Counted from the first letter of the stretch, positions 9,501 to 21,743 are shown. The stretch is 64,000 nt of DNA from Gammaproteobacteria bacterium (GCA_011523505.1 WTGP01000053.1:581-64580), one strand, 5' to 3'. Notes: generated from the letters alone by a model not told the origin. Made by a program: numbers and translations.

Positions 9501-12500
9501 GTCGGTGTCCTGCTCCGTGGTGACCGTCAGCGTGCCCGTGCCGTCCGTGCCGATGCTGGCCGTGCGGTCGCCGTCCTGCCCGTCTTCCGCAAAATCGCCG
9601 CTGTCCGTCACGTCGATGTTCACGGTCAGCGCGCTGGCCGGCGCCGGCGAGGCGCTCAGGTTGAAGGTGATGACGCCGCCCTCGGTGACGTCGTTGCCGT
9701 CGGCGATGCTCACCACCGGCTTGTCGTCGTCGGCGACGTCGGCCGTGGCCGAGTTGTTCGTGCCGTGCACCGAGTAGCCGTTGCCGGCACGAAGCGTCGC
9801 GGTGATCGTGCCGTCCGGCTCGTTGACGCTGTCCGGGACCGTGGTGACGGTCAGCGTGCCCGTGCCGTTCGTGCCGATGGTGGCGGTGCGGTCGCCGGTC
9901 TGGCCGGACCCCGCGAAGCTGCCGCTGTCGGCGACCTTGACGTTCACGGTGATCGCGCTGGCCGGCGCCGGCGAGGCGCTCAGGTTGAAGGTGATGGCGC
10001 CGCCCTCGGTGACGTCGTTGCCGTCGGCGATGCTCACCACCGGCGTGGCCGGCGGCGGGTCGTCGTCGTCGTTGACCGCCGCCGTGCCCGAGTTGGCCGT
10101 GGCGTGCACCGAGTAGCCGCCGCCGGCCTTGAGCGTCGCGGTGATCGTGCCGTGGGGCTCGTCGACGTCGTCGGGCACGGTGGTGACGGTCAGCGTGCCC
10201 GTGCCGTCCGTGCCGACGGTGGCTGTGCGGTCGCCGGTCTGGCCGGACCCCGCGAAACTGCCGCTGTCGGCGACCTTGACGTTCACGGTGATCGCGCTGG
10301 CCGGCGCCGGGCTGGCGCTCAGGTTGAAGGTGATGGCGCCGCCCTCGTCGACGTTGTTGCCGTTGGCGATGCTCACGATGGGCGTGGCCGGCGGCGCTTC
10401 GTCGTTGTCGTTCACCGTGGCCGTGGCGGTATGGCTGCTGCCGTGCACCAGGTAGCCGTCGCCGGTCGCCAGCGCTGCGGTGATCGCGCCGGGCGGTTCG
10501 TCGATGCTGTCGTCGTCGGTGCCGACGGTCAGCGTGCCCGTGCCGTCCGTGCCGATGGTCGCGGTGCGGCTCCCGGCCTGGCCGCTCTTCGCGAAGCTGC
10601 CCTTTTGCGTCACCTCCACGTTCACGGTGATGGCGCCGGCCGGCGCCGGGCTGGCGCTCAGGTCGAAGGTGATCGTGCCGCCCTCGGTGACGGCGTTGCC
10701 GCCGGAAATGCTCACCACCGGCGTGTCCGTCCGGTCGTCGTCCCGCACGCGCACGCCGACGGACTTCGCGGTGACGTTCTCGTATTCCTCGATGCCGCTG
10801 ACGGTGTGGGTGAGCGTGGTGCGCTCGTCGTCCGCGTCCGCATCGTCCACCGCCGCCACATGGACGTATTGCAGCCGGTCCCAGTTGCTGCGCGTGAAGG
10901 TCAGGGTGGCGCTGGCGCCCGGCTGGGCGCTGCCGACGCGCACCTTCGCCGCCGCCGGGTCGGCGCTGGTGACCGTGACCGTCACGTCGCCGCTGGGGCA
11001 GCCGCGGCAGGCGCCGCCGGTCGGCTGCTTGCGCAACACCACGGAGTAGCGCCCGGACGCCCCGCCCTCGCCGACCGTCACGCTGGCGGCGCCGAGCGCC
11101 ACGCCCGCGACCGGGGTCTCCCGGTCCCAGATCGTGACGGCGGCCGGGGAGCGCCCGACCCCCACCCGGTCCGGGTGCTCGCTGAACAGTTCCACCGTGA
11201 ACTGCTCGTCGCCCTCGGTGGCGCCGTCGACGCGGATCCTGATCCGGACCGACTGCTGGTCATCGCCCGGCTCGAACACCACGGCGCGGCAGTCGCCGTC
11301 GACGTAGTCCCCGTTCCGCTCGGCGGTGCCCGCGAGGCAGCGCACCCCCACCTCCAGGCGCTCGGGGGCGGGCTGGTCGAGCACCACCGGCAGACTGAAG
11401 GTGGCGCCTTCCAGCACGAAATAGTTATCCCGGTCGAAGCCGGCCGTCGGGGTCTCGTTGAACCGGAAGTCCACCGTGCCGCTGCCCGACGCGCCGCCGT
11501 CGAGATTCGTACCGGAGGAGGCGGTCAGGGGGTCGAGGGCCAGGCTCACGGTTTCCGCGCCCTCGTCCGTGTTGTCCCCGATGCCGGTGAGGGTCAGCGT
11601 GGTGGCGCGCTTGGCGTTGGCGCCGCCGGTGAAGGTGATCGGGAGCTTGCCGCCGCTGAGGCCGCCGCACTGCACGCCGGTCTGGTTTTTGCAGGCGATG
11701 GTGTAGTCCGTGCCGCTGGCCGCGCCGCCGCCGATGGCGACCGTCACCGTCAGCGCCTCGGGCGACACCAGCGCCCGGCCGAGCGCCACCGTGACGGTCT
11801 TCACGCCGCCCTTCTCGGAGACGTTGCCGCCGGGGGCCGAGAGCGTGACCGAAGTGGGGTCGTCGTCGATGACGGTCACGGTGGCGGTCGTTTTCGCCGC
11901 GTCGAGGCTGAGCCCCGGCGTGGCCGTCGGCAGCGACAGCGCCGCGGTGTAGGTCTCGCGGGGCTCGTCGAGCGTGTCGGCCGCGAGCGGCAGGGCGACG
12001 GCGCGCGAGGACTGGGTCGAGGACAGGGACGGGTCGGAGTTCGAGCTCGTGCCGGTGCAGCGGTTGGTCGACTTCGAGCCGAAGCTCAGGAAGTCCGCCG
12101 GGAACTTTGCGGTGCCTTCCTCGACGCAGACGCGGAACGTGACCGGGCCGGCGCCGGACGACAGCGCCACCGTGCCGTTCGCGTCCCCGCCGGCGGCCGT
12201 CTCCGTCGCCGTCAGCGCCGTGGCCGCCCAGCCGATCGTGCGCCCGTCGTTCACGGTCACGTTGAAGGTCTTCTCCGTGGCGTGCGGGTCGGCGCCGCCG
12301 CCGACGTTGGTGCCGAGGCCCGAGCGGTCGAAGCCGTTGGCGCCGGCGCCGTCCGGGCCGAGCGCGATGGTGAAGGTCTCGCCGCCCGTTTCCGGGACCC
12401 CGTCCACCGTCGCCTCCAGCGTCAGTTCCGCCACGCGCGCGCCGGCGTCCTCGAAGCGCAGGTTCGGGGTGTCGGTGGTGGCGCCCGTGAGCGTGACGCC

Positions 12501-15500
12501 GGTGTTGCTCGCGCCGCTCTTCCCGGCCAGGCTCCAGTCGGCGGTGGAGACGCCGGCGCCGCCGCCGATCGACAGCGGCACGTCGATGATCTCGTCCTCG
12601 ACCAGCGCGCGCCCCAGGGTCACGGTGAACCCGATCGTGCCGCCCTCGTAGACCACGCCGGTCCCGACCCGCGTCAGGCGCACGACCGTCGGGTCGTTGT
12701 CGCTGGCGGTCGCCGTCACGGTCGCTGTCTTGCCGGCGTAGTCGCCGCCCGAGGCGGTGTGCTTGAGCGTCGCCTTGCCGGCCGCCCGGTCGCCGTCCTC
12801 GGGCACGGACACCGTCACCGTCTGCGCCGTCCCCCAGTCGGAGGTGGTGAACGTCAGCGACTCCGGGGTCGGCGTCAGCACCGTGCCCGCGTGACCCGTG
12901 ATCGCGACCGTCACCGAAGCCGACGGCTGGGTCGCCAGTGTCACCGTGTAGCCGGCGCTCGACCCTTCGGCGACGGTGAGCGTCGCGTCGGACAGCAACA
13001 GATTGGGCGTGTCGTCATCGGTCACCGTCACCGCCAGCGCCGCGGTCAGCGTGGCGTAGTCGCCGCCCGAGGCGGTGTGGGTGAGCCTGGCCGTGTCGTT
13101 GTCCGAGTCGTCGTCCTCGTCCGCCGACACCGTCACCGTCTGCGCCGTGTTCCAGTTCGAGGTGGTGAACGTGAGCGTCGCCGAGGACGGGTCGAGCGTG
13201 AGGTCGGTGTTCGCATGGCCGGCAATGGTCACGGTGACGTTGGCCGTCGGCTGCGAGGTCAGCTTCACCGTGTAGTCCGCGTCCGCTCCCTCGGTCACGG
13301 TGAGCGTCTCCTTCGAGAGCAGGATCTCCGCCGTCTCGTCGTCGGTCACCGTCACCGCCAGGTCCGCCGTCACCGACGCGTAGTCGCCGCCCGAGGCGGT
13401 GTGTGCGAGGGTGGCCGTGTCGTCGACCGCGTCGTCGTCGCCGGCCGCCGACACCGTGACGGTCTGCTCGCTCGCCCAGTCCGTGGTCGTGAACGTGAGG
13501 CTCGCCGGATTCCGCGTCACGTCGGTGTTCGCCGGGACCGCGATCGCCACGGTGACGTTGGCCGTCGGCTCCGTCGCAAGCTTCACCGTGTAACTCGCGC
13601 TGCCCCCCTCGGCCACCGTCAGCGGGTTCTTGGACAGCACCAGATTGGGCGAGTCGTCGTCGGTGGTGTTCACCGTCAGGTCTGCGGTCTCGCCGGCGTA
13701 GTCGCCGCCGGACGCGGTGTGTGTCAGGGTCGCCGTGTCGTTGACCGTGTCGTCGTCCTCGCCCGCCGACACAGTCACTGTCTGCGCCGTCGCCCAGTTC
13801 GAAGCCGTGAACGTGAGGCTCGTCGGACTCGGCGTCAGTTCGGTGCCCGCCTGGCCGGTGATCGCCACCGTCACCGTGGCCGTCGGCTCCGTCGCCAGCT
13901 TCACCGTGTATTCGGCGTCCGAATCTTCGGTGACGGCGAGCGTCGCCGCCGAAAGCACGATCCCGGCCTCGTCGTCGTCGGTGGTGTTCACCGTCAGGTC
14001 CGCGCTCTTGCCGGCGTAGTCCCCGCCCGAGGCGGTGTGGGTGAGCGTGGCCGTGTCGTCGGCCGCGTCGTCGTCCTCGCCCGCCGACACCGACACCGTC
14101 TGCTCGGTCTCCCAGTTCGAGGTCGTGAACGTCAGCGACGCCGGGCTCGGCGTCAGTTCGGCGCCCGCCTGGCCGGTGATCGCCACCGTGACCGTGGCCG
14201 ACGGCTCGGTCGCCAGTCTCACCGTGTAGCCGGCGCTCGACCCTTCGCCGACTTCGAGCGTCCCCTCGGACAGCACCAGGTTGGGCGAGTCGTCGTCGGT
14301 GGTGTTGACCTTCAGGGTCGCCGTCAGCGCGTCGTAGTCGCCGCCCGAGGCGGTGTGGGTCAGCGTCGCCTCGTCGTTGACCGTGTCGTCGTCCTCGCCC
14401 GGGGTCACCGTCACCGTCTGCGGCTCGTTCCAATTGGCGGACGTGAAAACGAGCTGCGCCGAGGACGGCTCGAGCGTGAGGTCGGTGTCCGCAAGGCCGG
14501 TGATGTCCACGATGACGTCGCTCGTCGGCGCCGAGGCCAGCGTCACCGTGTAGGTGTCGGCGTCGCCGCCTTCCGTCAGGGCGAGCGTCTCCTTCGACAA
14601 CAGGACCTCGGTCGTGTCGTCGTCGGTGACCGTCACCTGAAGCGCCGCCGTCAGCAACTCGTAGTCGCCGCCGGCGGCGATGTGGCTCAAGGTGTCCGTG
14701 TCGTTGAGCACGTCGTCGTCCTCGCCCGCCGTGACCGTCACCGTCTGCGGCTCGTTCCAGTCCGTGGTCGTGAACGTGAGCGTCGCCGGGACCGGGTCGA
14801 GCGTGAGGTCGGAGTCCGCCGGGAGTGCGACCTCCACCGTGACCGTCTGCGTCGGCTCGGTCGCCAGTCTCACCGTGTAGCTGGCGTCGCCGCCTTCCGC
14901 CACCGTCAGCGCAACGGTCGACAGCCCGATCTGCGGCGTCTGGGCGTCGGTCACCGTCAGGTCGAAGGCATTGTCCGTCCCGTGCGGGTCGGCGCCGCCG
15001 CCGACGTTGGTGCCGAGGCCGGTGCGGTCGAAGCCGTTCGCGCCGGCGCCGTCGGGGCCCAGCGCGACGGTGAAGGTCTCGCCGCCGGCCTCGACCCTGG
15101 CGTCGATGGCGGGGGTGAGTTCGAGGTACGCGGTGCGGGCGCCGCCGCCGGCGAAGCGCACGGCCGGGGTGGCGCTGTCGGTCGCCAGCAGGCTCACGCC
15201 GGTGTTCCGGCCGGCGGGGTTCTTCGCCAACGTCCATTCGTCGGGCGTGACGTTCGTGCCGGAGACCGCGAGCGGCACGTCGATGGTTTCGCCCGCGACC
15301 AGCGTCCGGCCCAGGTTGATCGTGAATTGCGTGCTGCCGCCCTCGCTGACGGTGACGCCGCTGCCCGGCCCGTCCAGGCTCACCACGGTCGGGTCGTCGT
15401 CGACGATCGTGACGGTGTGCGTGCTTTTCGGCGCATTCAGGCCCAGCCCCGCCACCGCGTCCGGCAGGGACAGCGTCGCGGAGAAGGTCTCGTCCGGCTC

Positions 15501-18500
15501 GTCCTCGCCGTCGCCGCGCAGGGTGAGGCTCACCGCCTGGCTCGACTGGCCCGAGGCGATGGCCGGATCCGGGTTGGCGTTGCCCGTGCCGGTGCAGCGG
15601 GCGTCGCCGGGGAAGCCGCGGTAGTCGCCGGTGGCGCCCAGCGTCGCGGCGCCGTCGGCGAGGCAGACGCGGAAGGTCGCCGGACCCGTGCCGGCGGAGA
15701 GGGCGGCGTTCACGCTGAATTGCTTCTCGGCGCCCGCCGCGCCCTCGGCGACGGATTGCGCGGTGGCCGCCCAGCCGAGGGTGCGCGTGACGGTCCCCGT
15801 CTCGTTGTCGTTCACCTTGACGTTGAAAGCATTGTCGACGCCGTGCGGGTCGGCGCCGCCGCCGACGTTGGTGTCCGCATCGGCATCGAACTGCGCATTG
15901 CTGCCCAGCGCGACGGTGAAGGTCTCGCCGCCGACCTCGGCGCCGTCCTGGGCGGTGGCGGTGAGCTCCAGCGTCGCGGTCCTGGCGCCGGCGCCGGCGA
16001 AGCGCACGGCCGGGGCGGCGGTGCCGAGCAGGGTCGCGCCGGTGTTGGCCGCGCCGCTCTTCGCCGCCAGGCTCCAGTCGCCGGGGGTGACGCCGGCGCC
16101 GGAGATCGAGAGCGGCGCGTCGATGACCTCGCCCTTCGCCAGCGCCCGCTCCAGGCTGACCGTGAACGCCACCTTGTCGCCCTCCCTGATGGCGCTGCGG
16201 CCCGCCCGGGCCAGGCGCACGACGGTCGGGTCGTCGTCGCGCAGGGTGACTTCCAGGACGCGCGGACTGGTTGCGAGATCCTCCCATCGATCATGCTTCA
16301 GCCACGCGGTGTAGGTCTCGTCCGGCTCGTCGATGGCGTCGGCAATCGACGTGAAGCTCACCGTGGCGCGCGACGCGCCGGCGCCGATGGTGAGGTCGGC
16401 GTTGGTGACGCTGTTGGTGCCGGTGCAGGACTCCGTGCCCAGCACGACGCCCCGGTAGTCCGTCCCGAAGGTCGCGGTACCGTCGCTCAGGCACACCTCG
16501 AAGGTGAGCGCCTCGCTCGCCGGCGACGAAAGCTCGACGCCGATCGACCCGGCCGCCGCGGTTTCGGTGACTTCCAGCGCCTTCGCGGCCCAGCCGAGCG
16601 TGCGCTGGTTTACGCCCCTGTCTCTCAGGTACATGGCATGTCGCCTGTCGCCGCGGCTGCCGGTGACGCCGCCGCCGAGGCCCGTGGCCGTCAGGCGCGG
16701 CGCGGCGCCGGTGGAACCGGCGGGAATGTCTACGTAGAACCGCTCGCTGTCCGCGTCGTCGTCGACTTCGGCGATGACTTGCACTGTAACGGCGGAGGGG
16801 CCAGCGCCGGAGTCCAGGCCGGTGAAGACCACCGTGCTGGTGTCCCGGTCGAGGCGCACGCCGGCCGAGCCCCCCGCATACAGGGTGAAATCCTCGTTCG
16901 GGGTGGCGCTGCTGCCGCCGATCGGCTGGAACAGCAGCGGCACCGCGAGCACCTCGCCGGAGACCAGCCCGCGGTTCAGGGCGAGGTGAATCTGCGCGTA
17001 AATGTCCAGGCCTTCGTAGGCATCTCTGACCGGCGTGGTCAGGGTGACATGGCCGGGGTCGTCGTCCACCACGGCGACCGTGGCGGCGTTGTTGGTCCCG
17101 ACGGTCCCGTAGTCGCCGGCGGCCAGCGTCGCCGTCACCGTGCCGTTCGCCTCGTCCGTACCGTCGGCGACCGTGGAGACGGTGAACGAGACGGTCTGCG
17201 CGCCCGTCGTCAAGGTGACCGTCCCGCGGCCGAGGTTGCCGGCCGCCACGAACCCGCCCGACTGCGCCACCTCGAAGTTCACCGTCAGGTCCGCCGGCAC
17301 GGCGACGTCCGACGTCACCGTGAACGCCGCCGGCGTGCCCTCGGTCACCGACGCGGCGTCCGCGGCGATCCGGAGCCGCGGCTTGTCGTCATTGGCGATG
17401 GTCAGCGTCACGTCCTCCGGCTGCCCCACCGGGTCGAGTCCGCCGCTGGCGGTGGCCCACACCGTGACCTCCTTGTAGACTTCGACCGAGTCGTCGTCCG
17501 CGGCGGTGACGGTCACCTTGCCGGTGCTCGCGGTCTGTCCGGCGGGGATGGTCAGGCGCCTGTTCTGGCTGAGCGTGAAGTCGTCCGCCGTGGCGGGGGA
17601 GACGGGGTCGGCCTCGACCACCAGGGTCACGTCATTGGCCGTCGGCCCGCTCAGGCTCGCCGTCACGGTGGAGCGGTTGGCGCCGAGTTCGGCGTTCTCG
17701 AAGATGCGCGGCGGGCTGAGGTCGAGGCTGGCGACCGACACGTCGTCGTCCTTGATCGGGATCGTCCAGCTTTCGTGCAAACCCTCATCGCCGGGACCGA
17801 CCCAGTAGCCGTCGCCGGCCAGCACCGTCATCTTCGCCCAGCCGTGCGGTTCATCGACGAGGTCGTTGCGTATCCGCACGTTGGGTTCCTTGAGGCCATG
17901 CTCGTTCAGACAGACCCTCGACCGGCCCCAACTGCGATGTGTCTGGTCGGGGCTGTAGAAGAACGCCCCCTGGACCTCGACAAAGAGCTGCACGCAGGCA
18001 TGCGGCGGGCCGACAATCTGCCAATACGCATAGGTATCTTGACGGGGTTGGCCCTCCGTCACCTCCCAGCGGGTCTGTGAGTAGGTGTATGCGCCATCCG
18101 GCTTCTTCCCTCGGATGGTCGATTTGCCGGCGCCCAGGATGCCCGCGTGACTACGGAGCCTGCGCACCGTGGAATCGCCTTCGTCGTCCCTGACCGTGAC
18201 CGTGGCCGCGGCGGGCGAACCGGCGCGATAGCCATGGCTCCCGAACGCATCGATGCGCGCCGTGACCGAGCCGTTGCCCGCCTGAACCTCGTTGTCCGCC
18301 GTGGGAAGACTCAGGATCGTGCTTGCAAGGCGGCCCGCCGGGATAACGCCGCTCGCAGCGTTGGAACCGCCGGAAACGTCGCCGAACCAGGTTGCCTTGA
18401 TCGCCACCGCGAGATCGGTCGTGGGCGCCGGGTCCGCCGCCACGATGAACTGGGCGCGTTCGCCCTCGACCACCGCCGCGGCCGCGGGCTCGATCGTGAG

Positions 18501-20900
18501 CGTCCCCGACACGCCCGCGTCGTTGTCCCTGACCGTCACCGCCTGCGTGGCGGACACCGCGTCGTAGCCGCCGCCCGACGCCGTGTGCGCCACGGACGCG
18601 GACCAGTTGGTGGCGCGGGCGTCGTCCTCGCCGATGCTCGCCGTCACCGTCTGCGCCACGTTCCATTGCGACGGCTGGAACGTCAGCGAGGCCGGGCTCA
18701 GGTTGAACTGGGGCGGGGAGGCGAACAGGTCCGGCCGGCCCGACACGACGGCCGCCGCGAGCGCCACCGTCACCGCCGCCGACGGCTGCGTTTCCAGCGC
18801 CACGGTCCAGGCGGCGCTGCCGCCCTCGTCCACGGACACCGCCGCGGGCGACAGCACCAGGCCAGCCATCGCCGCCTCGTCGTCGTCGGCGATGTTCACC
18901 GTGATGTCCGCGGTCAGGCCGGTGTAGTCGCCCCCGGCGGTCGTGAGCCTCAGCGTCGCGGTGTCGTCGACGGTGTCGCCGTCGTGGCCGGCGAAGACCC
19001 TCACCGACCGCAGCACCTGCCAGTGCGTGGTCGCGAGCGTCGCGGGGTCCGTGGTGAACGTGAGCGTGTCCTGGTTGCCGGGCTTGTGCGGGTCGGTGTC
19101 CACCGTCAGGTCGGTGTTGGCGTGCCCCGTGACCGTCAGCGTCACGGTGTTCGCCTTCGGATGGGTGTCCAGCTTCACGGTGAAGCTGGCGCCGAACCCT
19201 TCCCTGACGGCCAGCGTCGCCAGCGACGGGATGATCCCCTGCTCGTCGAGGTCGCTGATGGACAACGGCAGGTCCGCCGTCACGCCCTCGTAGTTCACGC
19301 CCGAGGCGGTGTGCCGCAGGATGGCCGTGTTGTCATCGACGTCGTGGTCCGGCCACGTGTGGAACCTCACCCTCTGCCACTCGTCCCAGTTCGCGGGGGT
19401 GAACGTCAGGGGATTGGGAAACGGGTCCCCGAAGGTACCGGCGTCATCGTTGTCGATCGATATCCAACGGGCCCGCTCGCCGATGGCCGAGACCCTCACT
19501 GTCACGTCCGCGGCCGGCGCCGGCGCACGCGACAGCTTCACGCGGTAGATTTTGGGCTGAGCTTCGGTCACGTCCAGCTTCGGATGCTCAAGCAGGATTA
19601 CCGGCCCTTCGTCGTCGTGGATATTCACCGACAGGGCCGCGCTCTCGCCGGAGAAGCCGCCCGTGACGGTATGGGTCAGCGCTACCGGCGGGGGGTTCAC
19701 CGCGTCGTTGTCATGGTCCGCCGCCACCGTCACCCGCTGGGGCGCCGCCCAGTTCGCGCCGGCGGGAAAGGTCAGCGTTCCGGGGGTCACCCTCAGGCCC
19801 GCGGCGTTGGTATTCCCCGTGATCGACACCGTCACCGCCGCCGCCGGCGGCCTTCCCAGCCGCACCGTGTAGTACGACTCCGACCCTTCGGTGACGGCCA
19901 GCGTGTCCGTGGACAGGATGACCGCCGGATGCCGCTTCATCAGGACGGAGGCGGAGAGGTCGGCGACCTGTGCCTTCTCGGTATCGTTCTCGTTGGGCCT
20001 GTTGCCGGGCACCCGCAGCAGGTCGCCGGACACGGTCACCGTCGCCGAGTAGTCGGAGGCGACGGGCTGACCGTTGTGCGTCAGGGTAATCTCGACGGAA
20101 CGATGGCTGGGGGTGCCGTGGCTGGTGCTGGTGCCGGTTTGCCGCGCGAGCAACCTGGCGCTAATGATGGACACGCCCGGGGGGGCGCCGCTCAGGGTGA
20201 ATTTGGCAAGGCCCGCGCGGCTGAACGATACCGGCCAGTGGGGCACCGTTCCGCCCACGATGTGGCCCGACTCGATCAGGTAAACGGACTTCTGGTCGCG
20301 CACGCCCCCGCCGCCGCCGCCGCCCGCGAACAGGAAGGACGCGTTGCGCGGCGTCAGCGTGATCTTCGCCTGGTTCAGGGAAGACGCCTCGATTTGGGCC
20401 GGGCTGGCTGTCAGGAACGGCGTGGTCTGCGCCGCCGCGCCGGCGGCGAGGCCGAGGGCCAGGGCGGCGGCGAGCAGACGGCGGCGGGCGGGGGCGCGCC
20501 GGCCGGGGCTTGGGGAGCTTGCGGAGGACGGGAGAGGGGTGGATCGGGGCGGCGCGGGTGTGGATGCGGGGAGAAAGCCGGCGGGGGCCGGCGCGGTGGT
20601 GGACGCGGTGAGAGAGTCGGCTCGGGCCGGCGCGGTTGCGGGAAGCTCAGGCCAAAGCGGAAAAAGCGCTGATCGAAGCGCGGAAACTGACGCGGGAAGC
20701 CGGCGCCTAATGGACGCACTCACCGGCACGGCACGGCACGGCACGGCACGGCACGGCACGGCACGGCACGGCACGGCAATTATACCAAGGGCGTGACGCG
20801 GTGATGAAAAGAAGTCAAGCCACCGTTTTCGCACCTGGAAGCCTCGGATCGCAGCAACCGCCGCTCCGATCTCCCCAGCCCAGCCTGCGCTGTAAGCCAC
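6513..20900 (-). CDS. Giant (about 4,700 aa) type Va autotransporter with a Calx-beta/Ig-like tandem-repeat passenger; the coordinates give the maximal ORF and the true start is uncertain (GTG 20723 is more likely than GTG 20900)
   Basis: Single uninterrupted 4,795-codon ORF. The C-terminus is a classical autotransporter barrel (GFWGRGAQSTFHG...LDGEVASAMLGVDYARGAWLVGVAL...GIEIRTRW-stop). The signal peptide RRAPARRRLLAAALALGLAAGAAAQ lies at about 20.43-20.50 kb. Passenger modules carry DEPDETF/ETFTVALG and LTHTASGGDY...VTVTDDD signatures. Confidence 0.9.
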   Translation of the reverse strand: MAYSAGWAGEIGAAVAAIRGFQVRKRWLDFFSSPRHALGIIAVPCRAVPCRAVPCRAVPVSASIRRRLPASVSALRSALFPLWPELPATAPARADSLTASTTAPAPAGFLPASTPAPPRSTPLPSSASSPSPGRRAPARRRLLAAALALGLAAGAAAQTTPFLTASPAQIEASSLNQAKITLTPRNASFLFAGGGGGGGVRDQKSVYLIESGHIVGGTVPHWPVSFSRAGLAKFTLSGAPPGVSIISARLLARQTGTSTSHGTPSHRSVEITLTHNGQPVASDYSATVTVSGDLLRVPGNRPNENDTEKAQVADLSASVLMKRHPAVILSTDTLAVTEGSESYYTVRLGRPPAAAVTVSITGNTNAAGLRVTPGTLTFPAGANWAAPQRVTVAADHDNDAVNPPPVALTHTVTGGFSGESAALSVNIHDDEGPVILLEHPKLDVTEAQPKIYRVKLSRAPAPAADVTVRVSAIGERARWISIDNDDAGTFGDPFPNPLTFTPANWDEWQRVRFHTWPDHDVDDNTAILRHTASGVNYEGVTADLPLSISDLDEQGIIPSLATLAVREGFGASFTVKLDTHPKANTVTLTVTGHANTDLTVDTDPHKPGNQDTLTFTTDPATLATTHWQVLRSVRVFAGHDGDTVDDTATLRLTTAGGDYTGLTADITVNIADDDEAAMAGLVLSPAAVSVDEGGSAAWTVALETQPSAAVTVALAAAVVSGRPDLFASPPQFNLSPASLTFQPSQWNVAQTVTASIGEDDARATNWSASVAHTASGGGYDAVSATQAVTVRDNDAGVSGTLTIEPAAAAVVEGERAQFIVAADPAPTTDLAVAIKATWFGDVSGGSNAASGVIPAGRLASTILSLPTADNEVQAGNGSVTARIDAFGSHGYRAGSPAAATVTVRDDEGDSTVRRLRSHAGILGAGKSTIRGKKPDGAYTYSQTRWEVTEGQPRQDTYAYWQIVGPPHACVQLFVEVQGAFFYSPDQTHRSWGRSRVCLNEHGLKEPNVRIRNDLVDEPHGWAKMTVLAGDGYWVGPGDEGLHESWTIPIKDDDVSVASLDLSPPRIFENAELGANRSTVTASLSGPTANDVTLVVEADPVSPATADDFTLSQNRRLTIPAGQTASTGKVTVTAADDDSVEVYKEVTVWATASGGLDPVGQPEDVTLTIANDDKPRLRIAADAASVTEGTPAAFTVTSDVAVPADLTVNFEVAQSGGFVAAGNLGRGTVTLTTGAQTVSFTVSTVADGTDEANGTVTATLAAGDYGTVGTNNAATVAVVDDDPGHVTLTTPVRDAYEGLDIYAQIHLALNRGLVSGEVLAVPLLFQPIGGSSATPNEDFTLYAGGSAGVRLDRDTSTVVFTGLDSGAGPSAVTVQVIAEVDDDADSERFYVDIPAGSTGAAPRLTATGLGGGVTGSRGDRRHAMYLRDRGVNQRTLGWAAKALEVTETAAAGSIGVELSSPASEALTFEVCLSDGTATFGTDYRGVVLGTESCTGTNSVTNADLTIGAGASRATVSFTSIADAIDEPDETYTAWLKHDRWEDLATSPRVLEVTLRDDDPTVVRLARAGRSAIREGDKVAFTVSLERALAKGEVIDAPLSISGAGVTPGDWSLAAKSGAANTGATLLGTAAPAVRFAGAGARTATLELTATAQDGAEVGGETFTVALGSNAQFDADADTNVGGGADPHGVDNAFNVKVNDNETGTVTRTLGWAATAQSVAEGAAGAEKQFSVNAALSAGTGPATFRVCLADGAATLGATGDYRGFPGDARCTGTGNANPDPAIASGQSSQAVSLTLRGDGEDEPDETFSATLSLPDAVAGLGLNAPKSTHTVTIVDDDPTVVSLDGPGSGVTVSEGGSTQFTINLGRTLVAGETIDVPLAVSGTNVTPDEWTLAKNPAGRNTGVSLLATDSATPAVRFAGGGARTAYLELTPAIDARVEAGGETFTVALGPDGAGANGFDRTGLGTNVGGGADPHGTDNAFDLTVTDAQTPQIGLSTVALTVAEGGDASYTVRLATEPTQTVTVEVALPADSDLTLDPVPATLTFTTTDWNEPQTVTVTAGEDDDVLNDTDTLSHIAAGGDYELLTAALQVTVTDDDTTEVLLSKETLALTEGGDADTYTVTLASAPTSDVIVDITGLADTDLTLEPSSAQLVFTSANWNEPQTVTVTPGEDDDTVNDEATLTHTASGGDYDALTATLKVNTTDDDSPNLVLSEGTLEVGEGSSAGYTVRLATEPSATVTVAITGQAGAELTPSPASLTFTTSNWETEQTVSVSAGEDDDAADDTATLTHTASGGDYAGKSADLTVNTTDDDEAGIVLSAATLAVTEDSDAEYTVKLATEPTATVTVAITGQAGTELTPSPTSLTFTASNWATAQTVTVSAGEDDDTVNDTATLTHTASGGDYAGETADLTVNTTDDDSPNLVLSKNPLTVAEGGSASYTVKLATEPTANVTVAIAVPANTDVTRNPASLTFTTTDWASEQTVTVSAAGDDDAVDDTATLAHTASGGDYASVTADLAVTVTDDETAEILLSKETLTVTEGADADYTVKLTSQPTANVTVTIAGHANTDLTLDPSSATLTFTTSNWNTAQTVTVSADEDDDSDNDTARLTHTASGGDYATLTAALAVTVTDDDTPNLLLSDATLTVAEGSSAGYTVTLATQPSASVTVAITGHAGTVLTPTPESLTFTTSDWGTAQTVTVSVPEDGDRAAGKATLKHTASGGDYAGKTATVTATASDNDPTVVRLTRVGTGVVYEGGTIGFTVTLGRALVEDEIIDVPLSIGGGAGVSTADWSLAGKSGASNTGVTLTGATTDTPNLRFEDAGARVAELTLEATVDGVPETGGETFTIALGPDGAGANGFDRSGLGTNVGGGADPHATEKTFNVTVNDGRTIGWAATALTATETAAGGDANGTVALSSGAGPVTFRVCVEEGTAKFPADFLSFGSKSTNRCTGTSSNSDPSLSSTQSSRAVALPLAADTLDEPRETYTAALSLPTATPGLSLDAAKTTATVTVIDDDPTSVTLSAPGGNVSEKGGVKTVTVALGRALVSPEALTVTVAIGGGAASGTDYTIACKNQTGVQCGGLSGGKLPITFTGGANAKRATTLTLTGIGDNTDEGAETVSLALDPLTASSGTNLDGGASGSGTVDFRFNETPTAGFDRDNYFVLEGATFSLPVVLDQPAPERLEVGVRCLAGTAERNGDYVDGDCRAVVFEPGDDQQSVRIRIRVDGATEGDEQFTVELFSEHPDRVGVGRSPAAVTIWDRETPVAGVALGAASVTVGEGGASGRYSVVLRKQPTGGACRGCPSGDVTVTVTSADPAAAKVRVGSAQPGASATLTFTRSNWDRLQYVHVAAVDDADADDERTTLTHTVSGIEEYENVTAKSVGVRVRDDDRTDTPVVSISGGNAVTEGGTITFDLSASPAPAGAITVNVEVTQKGSFAKSGQAGSRTATIGTDGTGTLTVGTDDDSIDEPPGAITAALATGDGYLVHGSSHTATATVNDNDEAPPATPIVSIANGNNVDEGGAITFNLSASPAPASAITVNVKVADSGSFAGSGQTGDRTATVGTDGTGTLTVTTVPDDVDEPHGTITATLKAGGGYSVHATANSGTAAVNDDDDPPPATPVVSIADGNDVTEGGAITFNLSASPAPASAITVNVKVADSGSFAGSGQTGDRTATIGTNGTGTLTVTTVPDSVNEPDGTITATLRAGNGYSVHGTNNSATADVADDDKPVVSIADGNDVTEGGVITFNLSASPAPASALTVNIDVTDSGDFAEDGQDGDRTASIGTDGTGTLTVTTEQDTDDEDNGTITADLAAGGGYTVHGTANSGTADVLDDDLPPPTVSITKGADVTEGQDVTFTLTSTPATAGLAVRVRITQSGNFASPSSQIATRTFTTNSNGVANIAITTEDDGIDEPNGSISARILTGTGYRPAATTTVTVDVEDNDLPPPTVSVSRAAAKVTEGQDVTFTVTVNPAPAAALDVKIEIAQTGNYVAASALGVKTVTVPTSGSEDHTVATVNDNVDEPDGSLSATVKSGTGYVVAASPNDSASVAVEDDEVTDYDGIEVSIEDASAKEGQDLEFAITLNEPAPGPITVQTVCIPGSAKIGYDFECYGSEVSFEEGDTRKVYRVWAVEDDVDEGEETFEVDIRRPNPAAVTIVRATAKGAIENDGPLPEAWLGRFGRAVAEQALEGVAARIAAARGGARTPGFRGTIAGRPIGGNGFAGTGARCAAPADTAAASPAGRDEPESPPAGQAASPRGSGAEGARGTLGGPVAAGAACDGDAFGPGTDEGAFAGRDALREPGIGWPQAQGSQGFGGASAGPFGAGVGGGIGPDGSTSFGSGGAPGVGGGFDGGAGQMAMGAGGGWGGPPQGQYPGMQTSTLQYLLMGSSFTYTGREDGGGGTLGFWGRGAQSTFHGRKGPLNLDGEVASAMLGVDYARGAWLVGVALTRSLGEGGWSSPANGSGTAESTLTAAVPYAAWDASERLSLWGAAGYGAGRMTLRPGASRADRMAYPLSNRPFPEPGRNGPEAAHETLRAGLGWSMAALGLRGSLFGGEGRGPALAAVSDALWSRTTSEKTEGMMAGAADVTRLRLGLEGGWRFGLPGGGSLTPKIEAGLRHDGGDAETGFGVEVGGGLAVAAPRLGLSLDIQARTLLAHEADGRRDTGFSASLAYDPAPDSRRGLSLNLRQSIGGQATGGLDALFASDPLGNRMGQDMTKRWTLEAAYGMPAFRERFIGSPTLGYGASDFGRDMSLGWQLEPDGPDAPDLTFGLKLSRRESPLNPPEHGLGIEIRTRW
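8740..10725 (-). repeat. Six tandem ~330-345 bp intragenic repeats (module P.VSI..GN.V.EGG.ITF.LSASPAP...ITVNV.V...G.F...GQ.G.RTA.IGT.GTGTLTV.T..D..DEP.G.ITA.L..G.GY.VH......A.V.DDD)
   Basis: Read from the translated ORF. Units 2 and 3 share a 43-residue identical run (EGGAITFNLSASPAPASAITVNVKVADSGSFAGSGQTGDRTAT). They also share identical DNA runs of about 50 nt (compare 9.88-10.03 kb with 10.22-10.37 kb). Confidence 0.8.
12700..14935 (-). repeat. Seven tandem ~318-327 bp intragenic repeats (module L.LS...L.V.EG....YTV.L...P...VTV.I.G....L...P..LTFT..NW...QTVTV.A.EDDD..D..ATLTHTASGGDY.....L.V...DDD)
   Basis: GGDY-containing motifs recur at about 12760, 13075, 13399, 13717, 14035, 14353 and 14680. 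The antisense shadow ORFs at these sites have near-identical starts (MWVS.AVS...). Confidence 0.85.
20725..20778 (-). repeat. Perfect pentanucleotide microsatellite: (GGCAC)x10 plus a partial unit on the + strand, equal to (GTGCC)n on the coding strand of the giant autotransporter
   Basis: Direct reading: caccGGCACGGCACGGCAC...GGCACGGCAat. There are ten uninterrupted units at 20725-20774 followed by GGCA. Confidence 0.97.
20779..20787 (-). promoter_or_regulatory. Putative extended -10 promoter element TGGTATAAT (minus strand) for the giant autotransporter gene
   Basis: The reverse complement of 20771-20790 is ccTTGGTATAATtgccgtgc, a perfect TATAAT preceded by TGn. It directly abuts the microsatellite. 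A TTGACT at 20813-20818 lies 28 nt away, too far to act as its -35. Confidence 0.45.
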
Positions 20901-21080
20901 TTACATCCCCAGCGGACTACCCACCATGCAACGTATATGTTGCGTAAGTATAAGCCATTGCCGAAGTTTCCGGCCGAAGTTTCCGGGCGCTGCGTGACGC
21001 TCGCTTCGCCGCCGCCGGGCGTGGTGGCCAAACGGCACTTCGTCTTACAATGCCGGCGAGCGTAGGAACAGGACCAGAGC

Positions 21081-21743
21081 ATGATTGCATACGGCATCTT
21101 CAACTTTCTGCACGTACTGGTGTTTGCGGTCATTGTCGGCATCGAACTCCCGGCGCTGTACGCGTTGCGCATGGCCGGGGCGCCGTCCGGCAACGAAGCC
21201 ACCCGCTCCGTGGCGGTGCGCGTGAAGCGCTACGCCGACGCGGTGTCCGCCATCATGCTGGTCCTGCTCCTGCCGCTGGGCGTGCAGATCGCGACCAAAC
21301 TCGGCGTCTACACGCTGATGTCCTCGGGCTGGCTGATCGCCACCTGGGTGGTGGGCCTGGCCTGGCTGGCCATCGCGCTGATGTCCGAGCTGACCGGCAG
21401 TTCGAAATGGGCGCAACGCATCTACAAGTCCGAGTGCGTGCTGCGCATCATCATCGGTCTCGGCAACGTCTATGACGCGGTGGTGGGCTTTGCCGGCGAC
21501 GGCATGATCCAGACGAACTGGCTGGCCGCCAAGGTTCTGCTGTTCGGACTGGTCCTGGTCGTCAGCGGCTGGATCCGCTGGCAGACCCGGGCCGTGCGGT
21601 TCGCCTCCCTCAATGCCGCCGATGAAACGGGCGCCGACTCGCAGCAATTGATCGACACGATACGCCGCGCCCAGTGGGGTAGCCACAGCATCCTGGCGAT
21701 GGTGCTGATCGCCGCCTACCTGGGAACCGCGAAACCCTGGTAG
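21081..21743 (+). CDS. Hypothetical integral membrane protein (multiple hydrophobic helices)
   Basis: 220-aa ATG ORF with a hydrophobic helix pattern (FLHVLVFAVIVGI, IMLVLLLPLGV, LIATWVVGLAWLAIAL, VLLFGLVLVVSGW, ILAMVLIAAYL). Divergent from the giant gene. No family recognised. Confidence 0.7.
   Translation: MIAYGIFNFLHVLVFAVIVGIELPALYALRMAGAPSGNEATRSVAVRVKRYADAVSAIMLVLLLPLGVQIATKLGVYTLMSSGWLIATWVVGLAWLAIALMSELTGSSKWAQRIYKSECVLRIIIGLGNVYDAVVGFAGDGMIQTNWLAAKVLLFGLVLVVSGWIRWQTRAVRFASLNAADETGADSQQLIDTIRRAQWGSHSILAMVLIAAYLGTAKPW

What the first reader, a model, noticed from the sequence alone, without database searches (positions are those of the whole stretch)
20721..20790. Perfect pentanucleotide microsatellite between an extended -10 box and the first usable start codon of the giant autotransporter: candidate phase-variation switch
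Seen directly on the coding (minus) strand: ccTTGGTATAAT-TGCC(GTGCC)x10-G-GTG AGT GCG. The TGnTATAAT box touches the tract. The GTG at 20723 directly after the tract is the only in-frame ATG/GTG/TTG before the signal peptide at about 20.43-20.50 kb. In the maximal ORF (GTG 20900) the tract would be translated as AVPCR repeats. Because the unit is 5 nt, gain or loss of one unit would frameshift any translation starting upstream of the tract (ON/OFF). If transcription starts at this -10, the tract makes up nearly the whole 5' leader, so unit changes would alter leader length and structure. Slipped-strand repeat tracts controlling surface adhesins are established for Neisseria opa (CTCTT) and Haemophilus contingency loci. 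By inference, such a tract at a 14-kb adhesin gene in a high-GC, environmental-looking genome is unusual.
Basis: partly seen in the sequence, partly recalled or inferred. Interest (0 to 1): 0.8.

Follow-up and report, generated by a model that had tools for sequence, protein, structure and literature searches.

The report
Variable repeat switch before giant adhesin
A perfect 5-base repeat sits between the promoter and the start codon of a 4,700-residue surface adhesin gene, its copy number differs (8 to 11) between otherwise identical wild populations, and six related adhesin genes in other bacteria carry a different repeat at the same spot, so it is very probably a heritable, reversible expression switch in an uncultured, probably sponge-associated bacterium.

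Summary
Window 20724-20778 holds a perfect (GTGCC)-type tract of 11 units on the minus strand. The only TGnTATAAT box in 64 kb touches its 5' end, and GTG 20723 follows its 3' end. The gene is a real autotransporter (Pfam PF03797 barrel, Calx-beta passenger).

Two new results support a switch:
- Metagenome contigs that match the window at 0-5 SNPs over 4-20 kb carry 8, 8, 9, 10 or 11 units. The tract is the only indel there.
- Six homologous autotransporter genes from other Gammaproteobacteria MAGs each have a perfect repeat in the same leader position. The units are unrelated or only partly related (7, 8, 7, 8, 8, 7 nt). The repeat usually starts 0-4 nt after a -10-like box and ends 4-27 nt before a start codon with a weak or absent Shine-Dalgarno sequence. 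Two distant homologs have none. No other such repeat occurs in 300 kb of comparison sequence.

The best reading is a leader-embedded contingency repeat, closest to Haemophilus hmwA and Moraxella uspA2. An opa-like in-frame switch is less likely. How unit number changes expression is not shown. An hmw-like hairpin was tested and not found. This is a new variant of a known kind.

The parts
20724..20778 (-). Perfect pentanucleotide repeat, (TGCCG)x11 = TGCC(GTGCC)x10G. It is the hypermutable element.
   Evidence: TRF gives 11.0 copies at 100%. Other contigs carry 8, 9, 10 or 11 units with identical flanks.
20779..20787 (-). Extended -10 promoter box TGGTATAAT, directly abutting the repeat.
   Evidence: It is the only TGNTATAAT in 64 kb (expected 0.04). 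Of the five homologs with upstream flank, four have a -10-like hexamer within 11 nt upstream of their repeat; the combined p over the six loci including the window is about 1e-8.
20812..20817 (-). TTGACT, a -35-like hexamer 28 nt upstream of the -10 (non-canonical spacing). The hexamer at 17 nt is TCATCA (3 of 6).
   Evidence: Read directly and scanned. Homologs have TTGACA or TTGACT 16-20 nt upstream of their -10 box.
20721..20723 (-). GTG, the first start codon after the repeat. It is the most likely start of the autotransporter and has no Shine-Dalgarno sequence.
   Evidence: No other canonical in-frame start lies before the signal peptide. SD duplex energy is +0.6 kcal/mol. In 6 of 6 homologs the conserved N-terminus begins at the first start codon after the repeat.
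20707..20722 (-). Out-of-frame stops directly after the repeat: TGA 20722-20720 (overlaps the start as GTGA) and TAG 20709-20707.
20832..20845 (-). Rival start: GAGG (20845-20842), 7 nt, then GTG 20834. It is in frame through the repeat only when the unit number is 2 mod 3.
   Evidence: SD duplex -5.9 kcal/mol. Frame table. GC3 of 20834-20779 is only 0.44.
20430..20504 (-). Signal-peptide-like segment RRAPARRRLLAAALALGLAAGAAA, about 73 residues after GTG 20723.
   Evidence: Translation. It aligns with the signal peptides of the homologs.
20530..20636 (-). 39-nt (13-residue) tandem repeat, 2.7 copies, encoding a Pro/Thr/Ala-rich stretch between the start and the signal peptide.
   Evidence: TRF and translation. 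No length difference in L001-L003.
6513..20723 (-). Giant autotransporter ORF, 4736 codons plus stop, with a Calx-beta/fn3 passenger.
   Evidence: ORF list. Pfam Calx-beta E=4e-32. GC3 0.936.
6516..7688 (-). C-terminal autotransporter beta-barrel region, ending in W.
   Evidence: PF03797 at 39.3 bits, E=8e-10. 50% identity to the C-terminus of homolog P0015, E=5e-122.
21081..21743 (+). Divergent 220-aa membrane-protein gene. It served as the anchor to retrieve other copies of the locus and is not part of the switch.

Best explanation
The tract is a hypermutable simple-sequence repeat placed in the 5' leader of a giant Calx-beta autotransporter (adhesin-like) gene. It lies immediately downstream of the promoter -10 box and immediately upstream of a start codon that lacks a Shine-Dalgarno sequence.

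Proposed mechanism: slipped-strand mispairing adds or removes 5-nt units. This changes the length and content of the leader, and the promoter-to-start distance, so cell lineages differ heritably but reversibly in how much adhesin they make (phase or 'volume' variation).

Shown:
- The tract is real and perfect.
- Unit number varies from 8 to 11 among otherwise identical natural genomes.
- The gene is an autotransporter.
- Six homologous genes in other species have a perfect repeat at the same leader position with different units.

Inferred:
- Transcription starts at the TGGTATAAT box, so the first bases of the mRNA are repeat.
- Translation starts at GTG 20723.
- Unit number changes expression. 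My best guess is that it alters a largely unstructured, SD-less leader that acts as a ribosome standby or landing region, or that it alters promoter-proximal events, rather than shifting a reading frame.
For: 1. Hypermutability. Window 11 units, L001 9, L002 11, L003 10, L006 8, L008 8, with identical 30-nt flanks.
- L002 vs L003: 0 mismatches in 8.1 kb.
- L002 vs L008: 0 in 3.9 kb.
- L002 vs L006: 1 in 7.8 kb.
- Window vs L001: 2 in 20.6 kb.
In each pair the tract is the only indel.

2. Promoter. It is the only TGNTATAAT in 64 kb.

3. Family-wide architecture. Homologs came from an exhaustive phmmer search. They share the N-terminal domain, and P0015's barrel is 50% identical to the window's. 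Each has a leader repeat:
- L151: (ACCGCAG)x7
- L152: (GCTGGATC)x5
- L153: (ACGAGCC)x8
- L154: (GCCGGATC)x7 plus degenerate units
- L155: (GAGCCGCC)x6
- L156: (CCGGATG)x13 or more
. Two distant homologs, L157 and L158, have none.

4. Specificity. These seven are the only perfect repeats of unit 4-9 nt with at least 4 copies in 300 kb of window plus comparison loci.

5. -10-like boxes sit within 11 nt upstream of the repeat in 5 of 6 loci, combined p about 1e-8. The scan tool finds canonical promoters ending 4 nt before the repeat in L151 and L153.

6. In all six homologs the repeat lies upstream of the start codon that opens the N-terminus as called, M-x(4-5)-W followed by a basic stretch (gaps 4, 11, 25, 26, 27 and 185 nt).

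7. Starts close to the repeat have weak or absent SD (+0.6 to -3.2 kcal/mol), against a median near -6 for ten other genes.

8. Precedent: hmw1A (ATCTTTC)n is transcribed in the 5' UTR and sets adhesin level (PMC12721329). The uspA1 and uspA2 upstream repeats give graded expression (PMC7302503).
Against: - There is no transcript, protein or reporter data, so neither the transcription start nor the start codon is mapped.
- The strict promoter scan finds no -35/-10 pair in the window, because the TTGACT lies 28 nt upstream.
- Predicted accessibility of GUG 20723 is low (0.26-0.32) and hardly changes with unit number.
- No hmw-like hairpin partner was found, so no concrete length-sensing mechanism is supported.
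- All seven units are non-multiples of 3, which would also fit a frame-based switch.
- In the window an upstream GTG (20834) with a good SD is in frame for 8 and 11 units, the commonest alleles.
- Within-sample heterogeneity was not measured. Contig ends inside the tract (L004, L005, L007, L009, L010) can be assembler effects.
Confidence: 0.68

Rival explanations
1. Opa-like translational ON/OFF switch. Translation starts upstream of the tract at GTG 20834 (SD GAGG) or GTG 20900, and the tract is translated as AVPCR repeats. Only unit numbers equal to 2 mod 3 (8, 11, 14) keep the 4.7-thousand-codon ORF in frame. Other numbers terminate at TGA 20722 or TAG 20709.
For: - The frame is open from GTG 20900 through the tract at 11 units.
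- GTG 20834 and GTG 20900 have SD duplexes of -5.9 and -5.5 to -6.0 kcal/mol, stronger than the neighbouring gene's -4.4.
- Stops lie in both other frames 2 and 15 nt after the tract.
- 4 of 6 complete alleles are 8 or 11.
- All seven family repeats have unit lengths that are not multiples of 3 and are stop-free in all sense frames.
- A TATACT box at 20952 could drive such a transcript.
Against: - In all six homologs the repeat lies upstream of the N-terminal start as called. Three of them (L152, L153, L154) have an in-frame stop between or at the repeat boundary and the start.
- The perfect extended -10 would then sit inside the ORF by coincidence.
- GC3 of 20834-20779 is 0.44, against 0.68-0.89 for the first 28 codons of nine other genes.
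- 4 of 6 alleles in one frame class is not significant (binomial p about 0.10, my calculation).
- The N-terminal motif test does not favour 20834.
Confidence: 0.18
2. A neutral mutational hotspot. The repeat arose and persists through slippage in a promoter-proximal, single-strand-prone region and has no regulatory effect. Its variation is just noise.
For: - No expression data exist.
- Predicted start-codon accessibility does not change with unit number.
- (GTGCC)n tracts occur and vary in unrelated metagenome contigs: L118 vs L132 have 9.6 vs 6.6 units, and L054 vs L133 have 6.2 vs 7.2.
Against: - 7 of 7 genes of the closer homolog group carry a leader repeat, while none occurs elsewhere in 300 kb.
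- Units differ between lineages, yet the position is kept.
- L152, L154 and L156 carry related units at 74-77% protein identity, which implies long persistence.
Confidence: 0.12
3. An assembly artefact. The differences in unit number are errors of short-read assemblers at a low-complexity site.
For: Five contigs end inside the tract (L004, L005, L007, L009, L010). This shows that assemblers struggle here.
Against: The tract (40-55 nt) is far shorter than the k=141 suggested by the k141_ names of contigs L001, L003 and L008 (inference from the naming), yet these carry 9, 10 and 8 units. The JGI contigs carry 11 and 8. Flanks are identical, and only whole units differ.
Confidence: 0.02

Closest known systems
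Haemophilus influenzae hmw1A/hmw2A heptanucleotide (ATCTTTC)n repeat in the 5' UTR (PMC12721329; PMC8262952)
   Same: - A non-triplet repeat (7 nt there; 5, 7 or 8 nt here) lies upstream of the start codon of a very large secreted adhesin gene.
- It is transcribed (there) or inferred to be transcribed (here) as part of the leader.
- Unit number varies in natural populations.
   Different: - HMW is a two-partner-secretion adhesin, not an autotransporter.
- The hmw repeat forms a long hairpin with a G-rich arm that RNase III cuts. Here no complementary arm was found, and the repeats fold less stably than shuffled-unit controls in 7 of 7 loci.
- Here the repeat usually begins 0-4 nt after the -10 box and, in the window and L155, fills the whole leader.
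Moraxella catarrhalis uspA1 G(n) and uspA2 (AGAT)n upstream repeats (PMC7302503)
   Same: The repeats lie upstream of the ORF of autotransporter-type adhesins and give graded (high, mid, low) rather than on/off expression.
   Different: - UspA proteins are trimeric autotransporters of a human pathogen.
- The repeats lie 29 and 132 bp upstream of the ORF and are not reported to abut the -10 box.
- The organism has a low G+C content.
Neisseria opa (CTCTT)n pentanucleotide repeat (own knowledge; PMC13183285 listed)
   Same: A pentanucleotide unit at the 5' end of a surface-protein gene, before or within the export signal, with slipped-strand variation.
   Different: The opa repeat lies inside the ORF, in the signal-peptide coding region, and acts by frameshift. 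Here family comparison places the repeat upstream of the start codon.
Bartonella badE adhesin homopolymer contingency loci (PMC11466379)
   Same: Repeat-driven variation of a large autotransporter-family adhesin, observed in wild host-associated populations.
   Different: Those are mononucleotide tracts inside the ORF that cause frameshifts, in an alphaproteobacterial pathogen.

Membership tests
Simple-sequence-repeat contingency (phase-variable) locus | A long perfect tandem repeat of a 1-9 nt unit in or just upstream of a gene | tested here: met
   11 perfect 5-nt units at 20724-20778. It is the only such repeat in the window.
Simple-sequence-repeat contingency (phase-variable) locus | Unit number differs between otherwise identical genomes, changing by whole units | tested here: met
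   8, 8, 9, 10, 11 and 11 units with 0-5 SNPs over 4-20 kb.
Simple-sequence-repeat contingency (phase-variable) locus | The associated gene encodes a surface or host-interaction product | tested here: met
   Autotransporter barrel PF03797, Calx-beta passenger and a signal peptide.
Simple-sequence-repeat contingency (phase-variable) locus | Expression changes reversibly with unit number | not testable with these tools
   This needs reporter fusions, transcript and protein measurement, or read-level time series.
Simple-sequence-repeat contingency (phase-variable) locus | Heterogeneous unit numbers within one population | not testable with these tools
   Raw reads are not available. Contig breaks inside the tract are ambiguous.
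Type Va (classical) autotransporter | C-terminal beta-barrel translocator domain (Pfam PF03797) ending in an aromatic residue | tested here: met
   39.3 bits against a cut-off of 26, E=8e-10 on the last 400 aa. The protein ends ...IRTRW.
Type Va (classical) autotransporter | N-terminal Sec signal peptide | tested here: inconclusive
   A typical n-h-c segment, RRAPARRR-LLAAALALGLAAGAAA-Q, exists but begins about 73 residues after the first possible start. Homologs also carry 25-70 residue pre-signal extensions.
Type Va (classical) autotransporter | Extended signal peptide region (ESPR) motif, when an N-terminal extension is present | tested here: not met
   Pfam scan of the first 400 aa found no ESPR family. 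The homologs instead share M-x(4-5)-W followed by a basic stretch, and five of the seven also share a PPE motif about 10-15 residues further on.
opa-type in-ORF translational repeat switch | The repeat lies downstream of the start codon, so unit number sets the reading frame | tested here: inconclusive
   The window allows it (GTG 20834 and 20900 are in frame at 8 or 11 units). In six homologs, however, the repeat is upstream of the N-terminal start as called. Motif tests cannot place the window's start.
hmw-type 5'-UTR repeat switch | The repeat lies between the promoter and the start codon and is transcribed | tested here: inconclusive
   The position is met. Transcription itself was not measured.
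hmw-type 5'-UTR repeat switch | The repeat pairs with a complementary downstream arm to form a long hairpin (the RNase III substrate) | tested here: not met
   Duplex energy of the repeat with the 250 nt downstream is no better than with shuffled sequence in 7 of 7 loci. Self-folding is weaker than in shuffled-unit repeats in 7 of 7.

The most novel reading that the evidence does not exclude
A family of giant autotransporter adhesins in uncultured, probably sponge-associated Gammaproteobacteria shares a previously undescribed regulatory design. A repeat abuts the promoter and itself forms most or all of an SD-less 5' leader. The repeat sequence is free to change between species, but its position is conserved. 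Unit number would act as a heritable rheostat or switch, through 5'-end or standby-site dependent translation initiation or through promoter-proximal transcription. This would give mutualistic symbionts pathogen-style phase variation of host-contact proteins.
Probability: 0.3. Interest if true: 0.8.

Novelty: new variant of a known kind. Interest (0 to 1): 0.62.

Why it matters
Repeat-driven phase variation is textbook biology for small-genome human pathogens. The searches made here found no report of it for symbionts of marine invertebrates or for high-G+C environmental lineages.

Here the switch is supported by natural population variation and by conservation of position across at least seven gene lineages. 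If it controls expression, it implies strong fluctuating selection on a giant surface adhesin. Candidate pressures are host recognition or phagocytosis, phage adsorption, or the cost of making the protein.

It also offers a marker, the unit count, that can be read directly from existing metagenomes to follow on/off or high/low states in situ. The conserved layout (-10 box, then repeat, then SD-less start) is a compact, testable model for how leader repeats set expression.

Tried and rejected
1. Recurrent 'promoter plus (GTGCC)n' module across bacteria. A metagenome scan for (GTGCC)6 gave at least 120 loci. In 48 clean loci, -10-like hexamers were not significantly commoner on the upstream side (7 vs 3 of 32 high-GC loci). 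Rejected.

2. Exact junction search in the metagenome collection: no hit.

3. Synteny in relatives. Eleven loci were found through the neighbouring gene. The ten with enough upstream sequence, those at 71-92% identity, all lack the giant gene beside it; L010 at 99% ends inside the tract. No orthologous leader could be compared this way.

4. Word-index protein searches with the N-terminus gave almost nothing. The exhaustive phmmer search was needed.

5. Exact-protein look-ups of the 4738-aa and 4748-aa versions: not on record.

6. Placing the start codon by homology. An HMM of seven homolog N-termini gave no positive score anywhere. A position-score scan ranked GTG 20723 at 7-11 and GTG 20834 at 9 of 520 positions. 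Inconclusive.

7. hmw-like hairpin, or length-dependent occlusion of the start: not supported.

8. An upstream ORF coupled through the NTGA overlap at the start codon (6 of 7 loci). This is not distinguishable from the general preference for A at +4 (5 of 9 other genes). The frame of the boundary start codons is inconsistent across loci, and they overlap or lie within a few bases of the putative -10 box, so are probably untranscribed. Rejected as a general model.

9. Rfam: no family in 20300-21200.

10. Sigma-54 or G-quadruplex readings of the tract were considered by eye and dropped, because they do not depend on unit number.

Full report
**1. Observation**

On the minus strand the window reads ccTTGGTATAAT-TGCC(GTGCC)x10-G-GTG AGT GCG. 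Tandem Repeats Finder gives 20724-20778, period 5, 11.0 copies, 100% identity. It is the only perfect repeat of unit 4-9 nt with at least 4 copies in the 64-kb window.

TGGTATAAT (20787-20779) is the only TGNTATAAT on either strand; 0.04 are expected.

The maximal ORF is 6513-20900 on the minus strand, 4795 codons. GTG 20723 is in frame, and no ATG, GTG or TTG follows in frame until the signal-peptide-like segment. From GTG 20900 the tract reads AVPCR repeats.

One correction to the finding: in-frame GTGs also lie inside the tract (20729, 20744, 20759, 20774) and upstream (20834, 20900).

**2. The gene**

A whole-protein Pfam scan finds only Calx-beta and fn3_6. The last 400 residues alone match the Autotransporter beta-domain PF03797 above its cut-off (39.3 bits, E=8e-10), and the protein ends in RTRW. 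'Giant autotransporter' is therefore correct.

GC3 of the gene body is 0.936. It falls to 0.54 in 20723-20640 and to 0.44 in 20834-20779.

A second large Calx-beta gene follows (GTG 6505, running off the window). It has a paralogous signal peptide and also a pre-signal extension.

**3. The tract varies in nature**

The divergent 220-aa neighbour (21081-21743, plus strand) was used for exact-protein look-ups. The contigs that span the tract carry:

| Source | Units |
|---|---|
| L001 | 9 |
| L002 | 11 |
| L003 | 10 |
| L006 | 8 |
| L008 | 8 |
| Window | 11 |

The 30-nt flanks are identical. The rest of the DNA is essentially the same:

| Pair | Mismatches | Length compared |
|---|---|---|
| Window vs L001 | 2 | 20.6 kb |
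| L002 vs L003 | 0 | 8.1 kb |
| L002 vs L008 | 0 | 3.9 kb |
| L002 vs L006 | 1 | 7.8 kb |

In each pair the tract is the only indel. Only whole units differ.

Five further contigs end inside the tract: L004, L005, L007, L009, and L010, the species representative in the genome collection. This is compatible with heterogeneity but also with assembler behaviour, so I do not count it.

**4. Organism and context**

The nearest genome records are Gammaproteobacteria MAGs: COS2_bin_9 at 99% identity, and others including Candidatus Foliamicus at 71-92%. That such MAG names come from sponge metagenomes is my own knowledge and was not verified here.

In the ten relatives at 71-92% identity the giant gene is absent from this position (L010, at 99%, ends inside the tract). 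The gene region has 70-74% G+C against 60-69% across the rest of the window. The gene with its leader is therefore a lineage-specific insertion.

**5. Homologs and their leaders**

An exhaustive phmmer search with the first 250 codons found homologous giant autotransporters. They share the mature N-terminal domain at 41-48% identity. P0015's barrel is 50% identical to the window's (E=5e-122), and other homolog C-termini look similar by eye. Their annotated N-termini carry 25-70 residue extensions before the signal peptide. All seven begin M-x(4-5)-W followed by a basic stretch, and five also share a PPE motif about 10-15 residues further on.

DNA was obtained for eight homolog loci:

| Locus | Leader layout |
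|---|---|
| L151 | TTGACA-16-CATCAT-GTTA-(ACCGCAG)x7-11 nt-ATG |
| L152 | (GCTGGATC)x5-26 nt-ATG |
| L153 | TTGACT-17-TGcGACAAT-AATG-(ACGAGCC)x8-185 nt-ATG |
| L154 | TATAAT-GAA-(GCCGGATC)x7, then 2 degenerate and 3 further units, -27 nt-ATG |
| L155 | TAAAAT-(GAGCCGCC)x6-GGCG-ATG |
| L156 | contig begins inside (CCGGATG)x13 or more, -25 nt-ATG |
| L157, L158 (distant homologs lacking the motif) | no repeat |

Supporting statistics:
- In 300 kb of window plus comparison loci, these seven leader repeats are the only perfect repeats of unit 4-9 nt with at least 4 copies.
- A -10-like hexamer lies within 11 nt upstream of the repeat in 5 of 6 loci with flank. Fisher's combined p is about 1e-8 against background windows of the same loci.
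- The scan tool calls canonical promoters ending 4 nt before the repeat in L151 and L153.
- Start codons close to a repeat have weak or absent Shine-Dalgarno pairing: +0.6 to -3.2 kcal/mol, and -4.8 in L153, whose repeat is far away. The median is near -6 for ten other genes.
- L152, L154 and L156 have related units (GCTGGATC, GCCGGATC, GCCGGAT) at 74-77% protein identity. The repeat has therefore persisted through speciation. The other lineages carry different units.

**6. What this means for mechanism**

The conserved feature is the position, not the sequence: promoter -10, then repeat, then start. That argues for selection on having a mutable repeat in the leader.

Because the repeat lies upstream of the N-terminal start as called in all six homologs, a leader-level effect is the most economical model. 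In L152, L153 and L154 an in-frame stop also lies between or at the repeat boundary and the start.

By the same architecture, GTG 20723 is the window's start, because it is the first start after the repeat. The tract would then be almost the whole leader, as in L155.

How unit number is read out is unknown. Two tests were negative:
- Predicted accessibility of GUG 20723 stays at 0.26-0.32 for 6-14 units.
- No complementary arm like that of the hmw hairpin exists.

The repeats fold less stably than shuffled-unit controls in 7 of 7 loci. That is compatible with a single-stranded standby or landing region for SD-less initiation. This is an inference, not a result.

**7. The main rival**

In the window, GTG 20834 (SD GAGG, -5.9 kcal/mol) and GTG 20900 are in frame through the tract for 8 or 11 units. 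Both other frames stop 2 and 15 nt after the tract. All seven units are non-multiples of 3. Four of six alleles are 8 or 11, which is not significant (p about 0.10).

Against this rival stand the family comparison, the coincidence it requires for the extended -10 box, and the GC3 of 0.44 upstream of the tract. Homology tests could not place the start. I give this rival about 0.18.

**8. Comparison with known systems**

- Closest is the H. influenzae hmw1A 7-nt repeat in the 5' UTR (PMC12721329). It is the same in being a non-triplet leader repeat before a giant adhesin. It differs in secretion type, in the hairpin and RNase III mechanism (tested here and not met), and in not abutting the -10 box.
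- M. catarrhalis uspA1 and uspA2 upstream repeats give graded expression of autotransporter adhesins (PMC7302503).
- Neisseria opa shares the 5-nt unit but acts inside the ORF.
- Bartonella badE shows repeat-driven adhesin variation in wild hosts (PMC11466379).
- Literature searches found no report of repeat-driven phase variation in sponge symbionts and no paper naming Foliamicus.

**9. Verdict**

The 'candidate phase-variation switch' interpretation is supported by population variation and by conservation of position across the family. The molecular read-out is unresolved. I class this as a new variant of a known kind, with interest 0.62.

Noticed in passing
window 20960-20986: A 13-nt tandem duplication (GCCGAAGTTTCCG, 2.1 copies) in the same divergent intergenic region. 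The 99%-identical genome contig L010 carries only one copy. This is a second length polymorphism near the promoter region.
   Followed up: partly
window 20928-20943 (minus strand): Palindrome GCAAC-ATATAC-GTTGC just downstream of a TATACT box (20952-20947). It could be an operator or a leader hairpin for one of the divergent genes.
   Followed up: no
window 20530-20636: A 39-nt (13-residue) tandem repeat, 2.7 copies, encodes a Pro/Thr/Ala-rich stretch between the candidate start and the signal peptide. No length difference was seen among L001-L003.
   Followed up: partly
window 1-6505 (minus strand): A second large Calx-beta/LapA-like gene starts at GTG 6505, 8 nt after the autotransporter stop, and runs off the window. 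Its signal peptide is paralogous to the autotransporter's. It also has only one canonical start, about 45 residues before the hydrophobic core. An imperfect (GGCGC)n run lies at 6364-6392.
   Followed up: partly
window 28564: A one-base indel beside a C run (GGGCCCCGGGG), about 30 nt upstream of the TonB-dependent receptor start, separates the window and L001 from L002, L003 and L005.
   Followed up: no
window about 1-21040, compared with L011-L020: The giant gene and its leader are absent next to the 220-aa neighbour in the ten relatives at 71-92% identity. L011-L013 have what looks by eye like an esterase-type gene there (not checked against a domain library). The gene region has 70-74% G+C against 60-69% across the rest of the window, so it looks like a lineage-specific insertion.
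   Followed up: partly
L118 vs L132; L054 vs L133: Unrelated high-G+C metagenome contigs with identical flanks carry (GTGCC)n tracts of different length (9.6 vs 6.6 units, and 6.2 vs 7.2). This unit appears generally unstable.
   Followed up: no
L153 2727-2759, L154 1344-1375, L155 1417-1448: Three homolog promoters share TTGAC(A/T), exactly 20 nt, then (T/A)A(T/A)AAT-G. This spacing is unusual for sigma-70. In the window the TTGACT lies 28 nt from the TATAAT.
   Followed up: no
L153 3001-3837 and 3834 onwards; P0010: The homolog in L153 is called as two ORFs (278 aa plus 1339 aa or more). P0010 ends in a frameshift-like Arg/Pro-rich tail. These may be pseudogenised or phase-off copies, or long-read indel errors.
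   Followed up: no
L152 2935-2974, L154 1379-1473: The repeat units GCTGGATC and GCCGGATC each contain a GATC site, so unit number also changes the number of potential Dam-type methylation sites in the leader.
   Followed up: no
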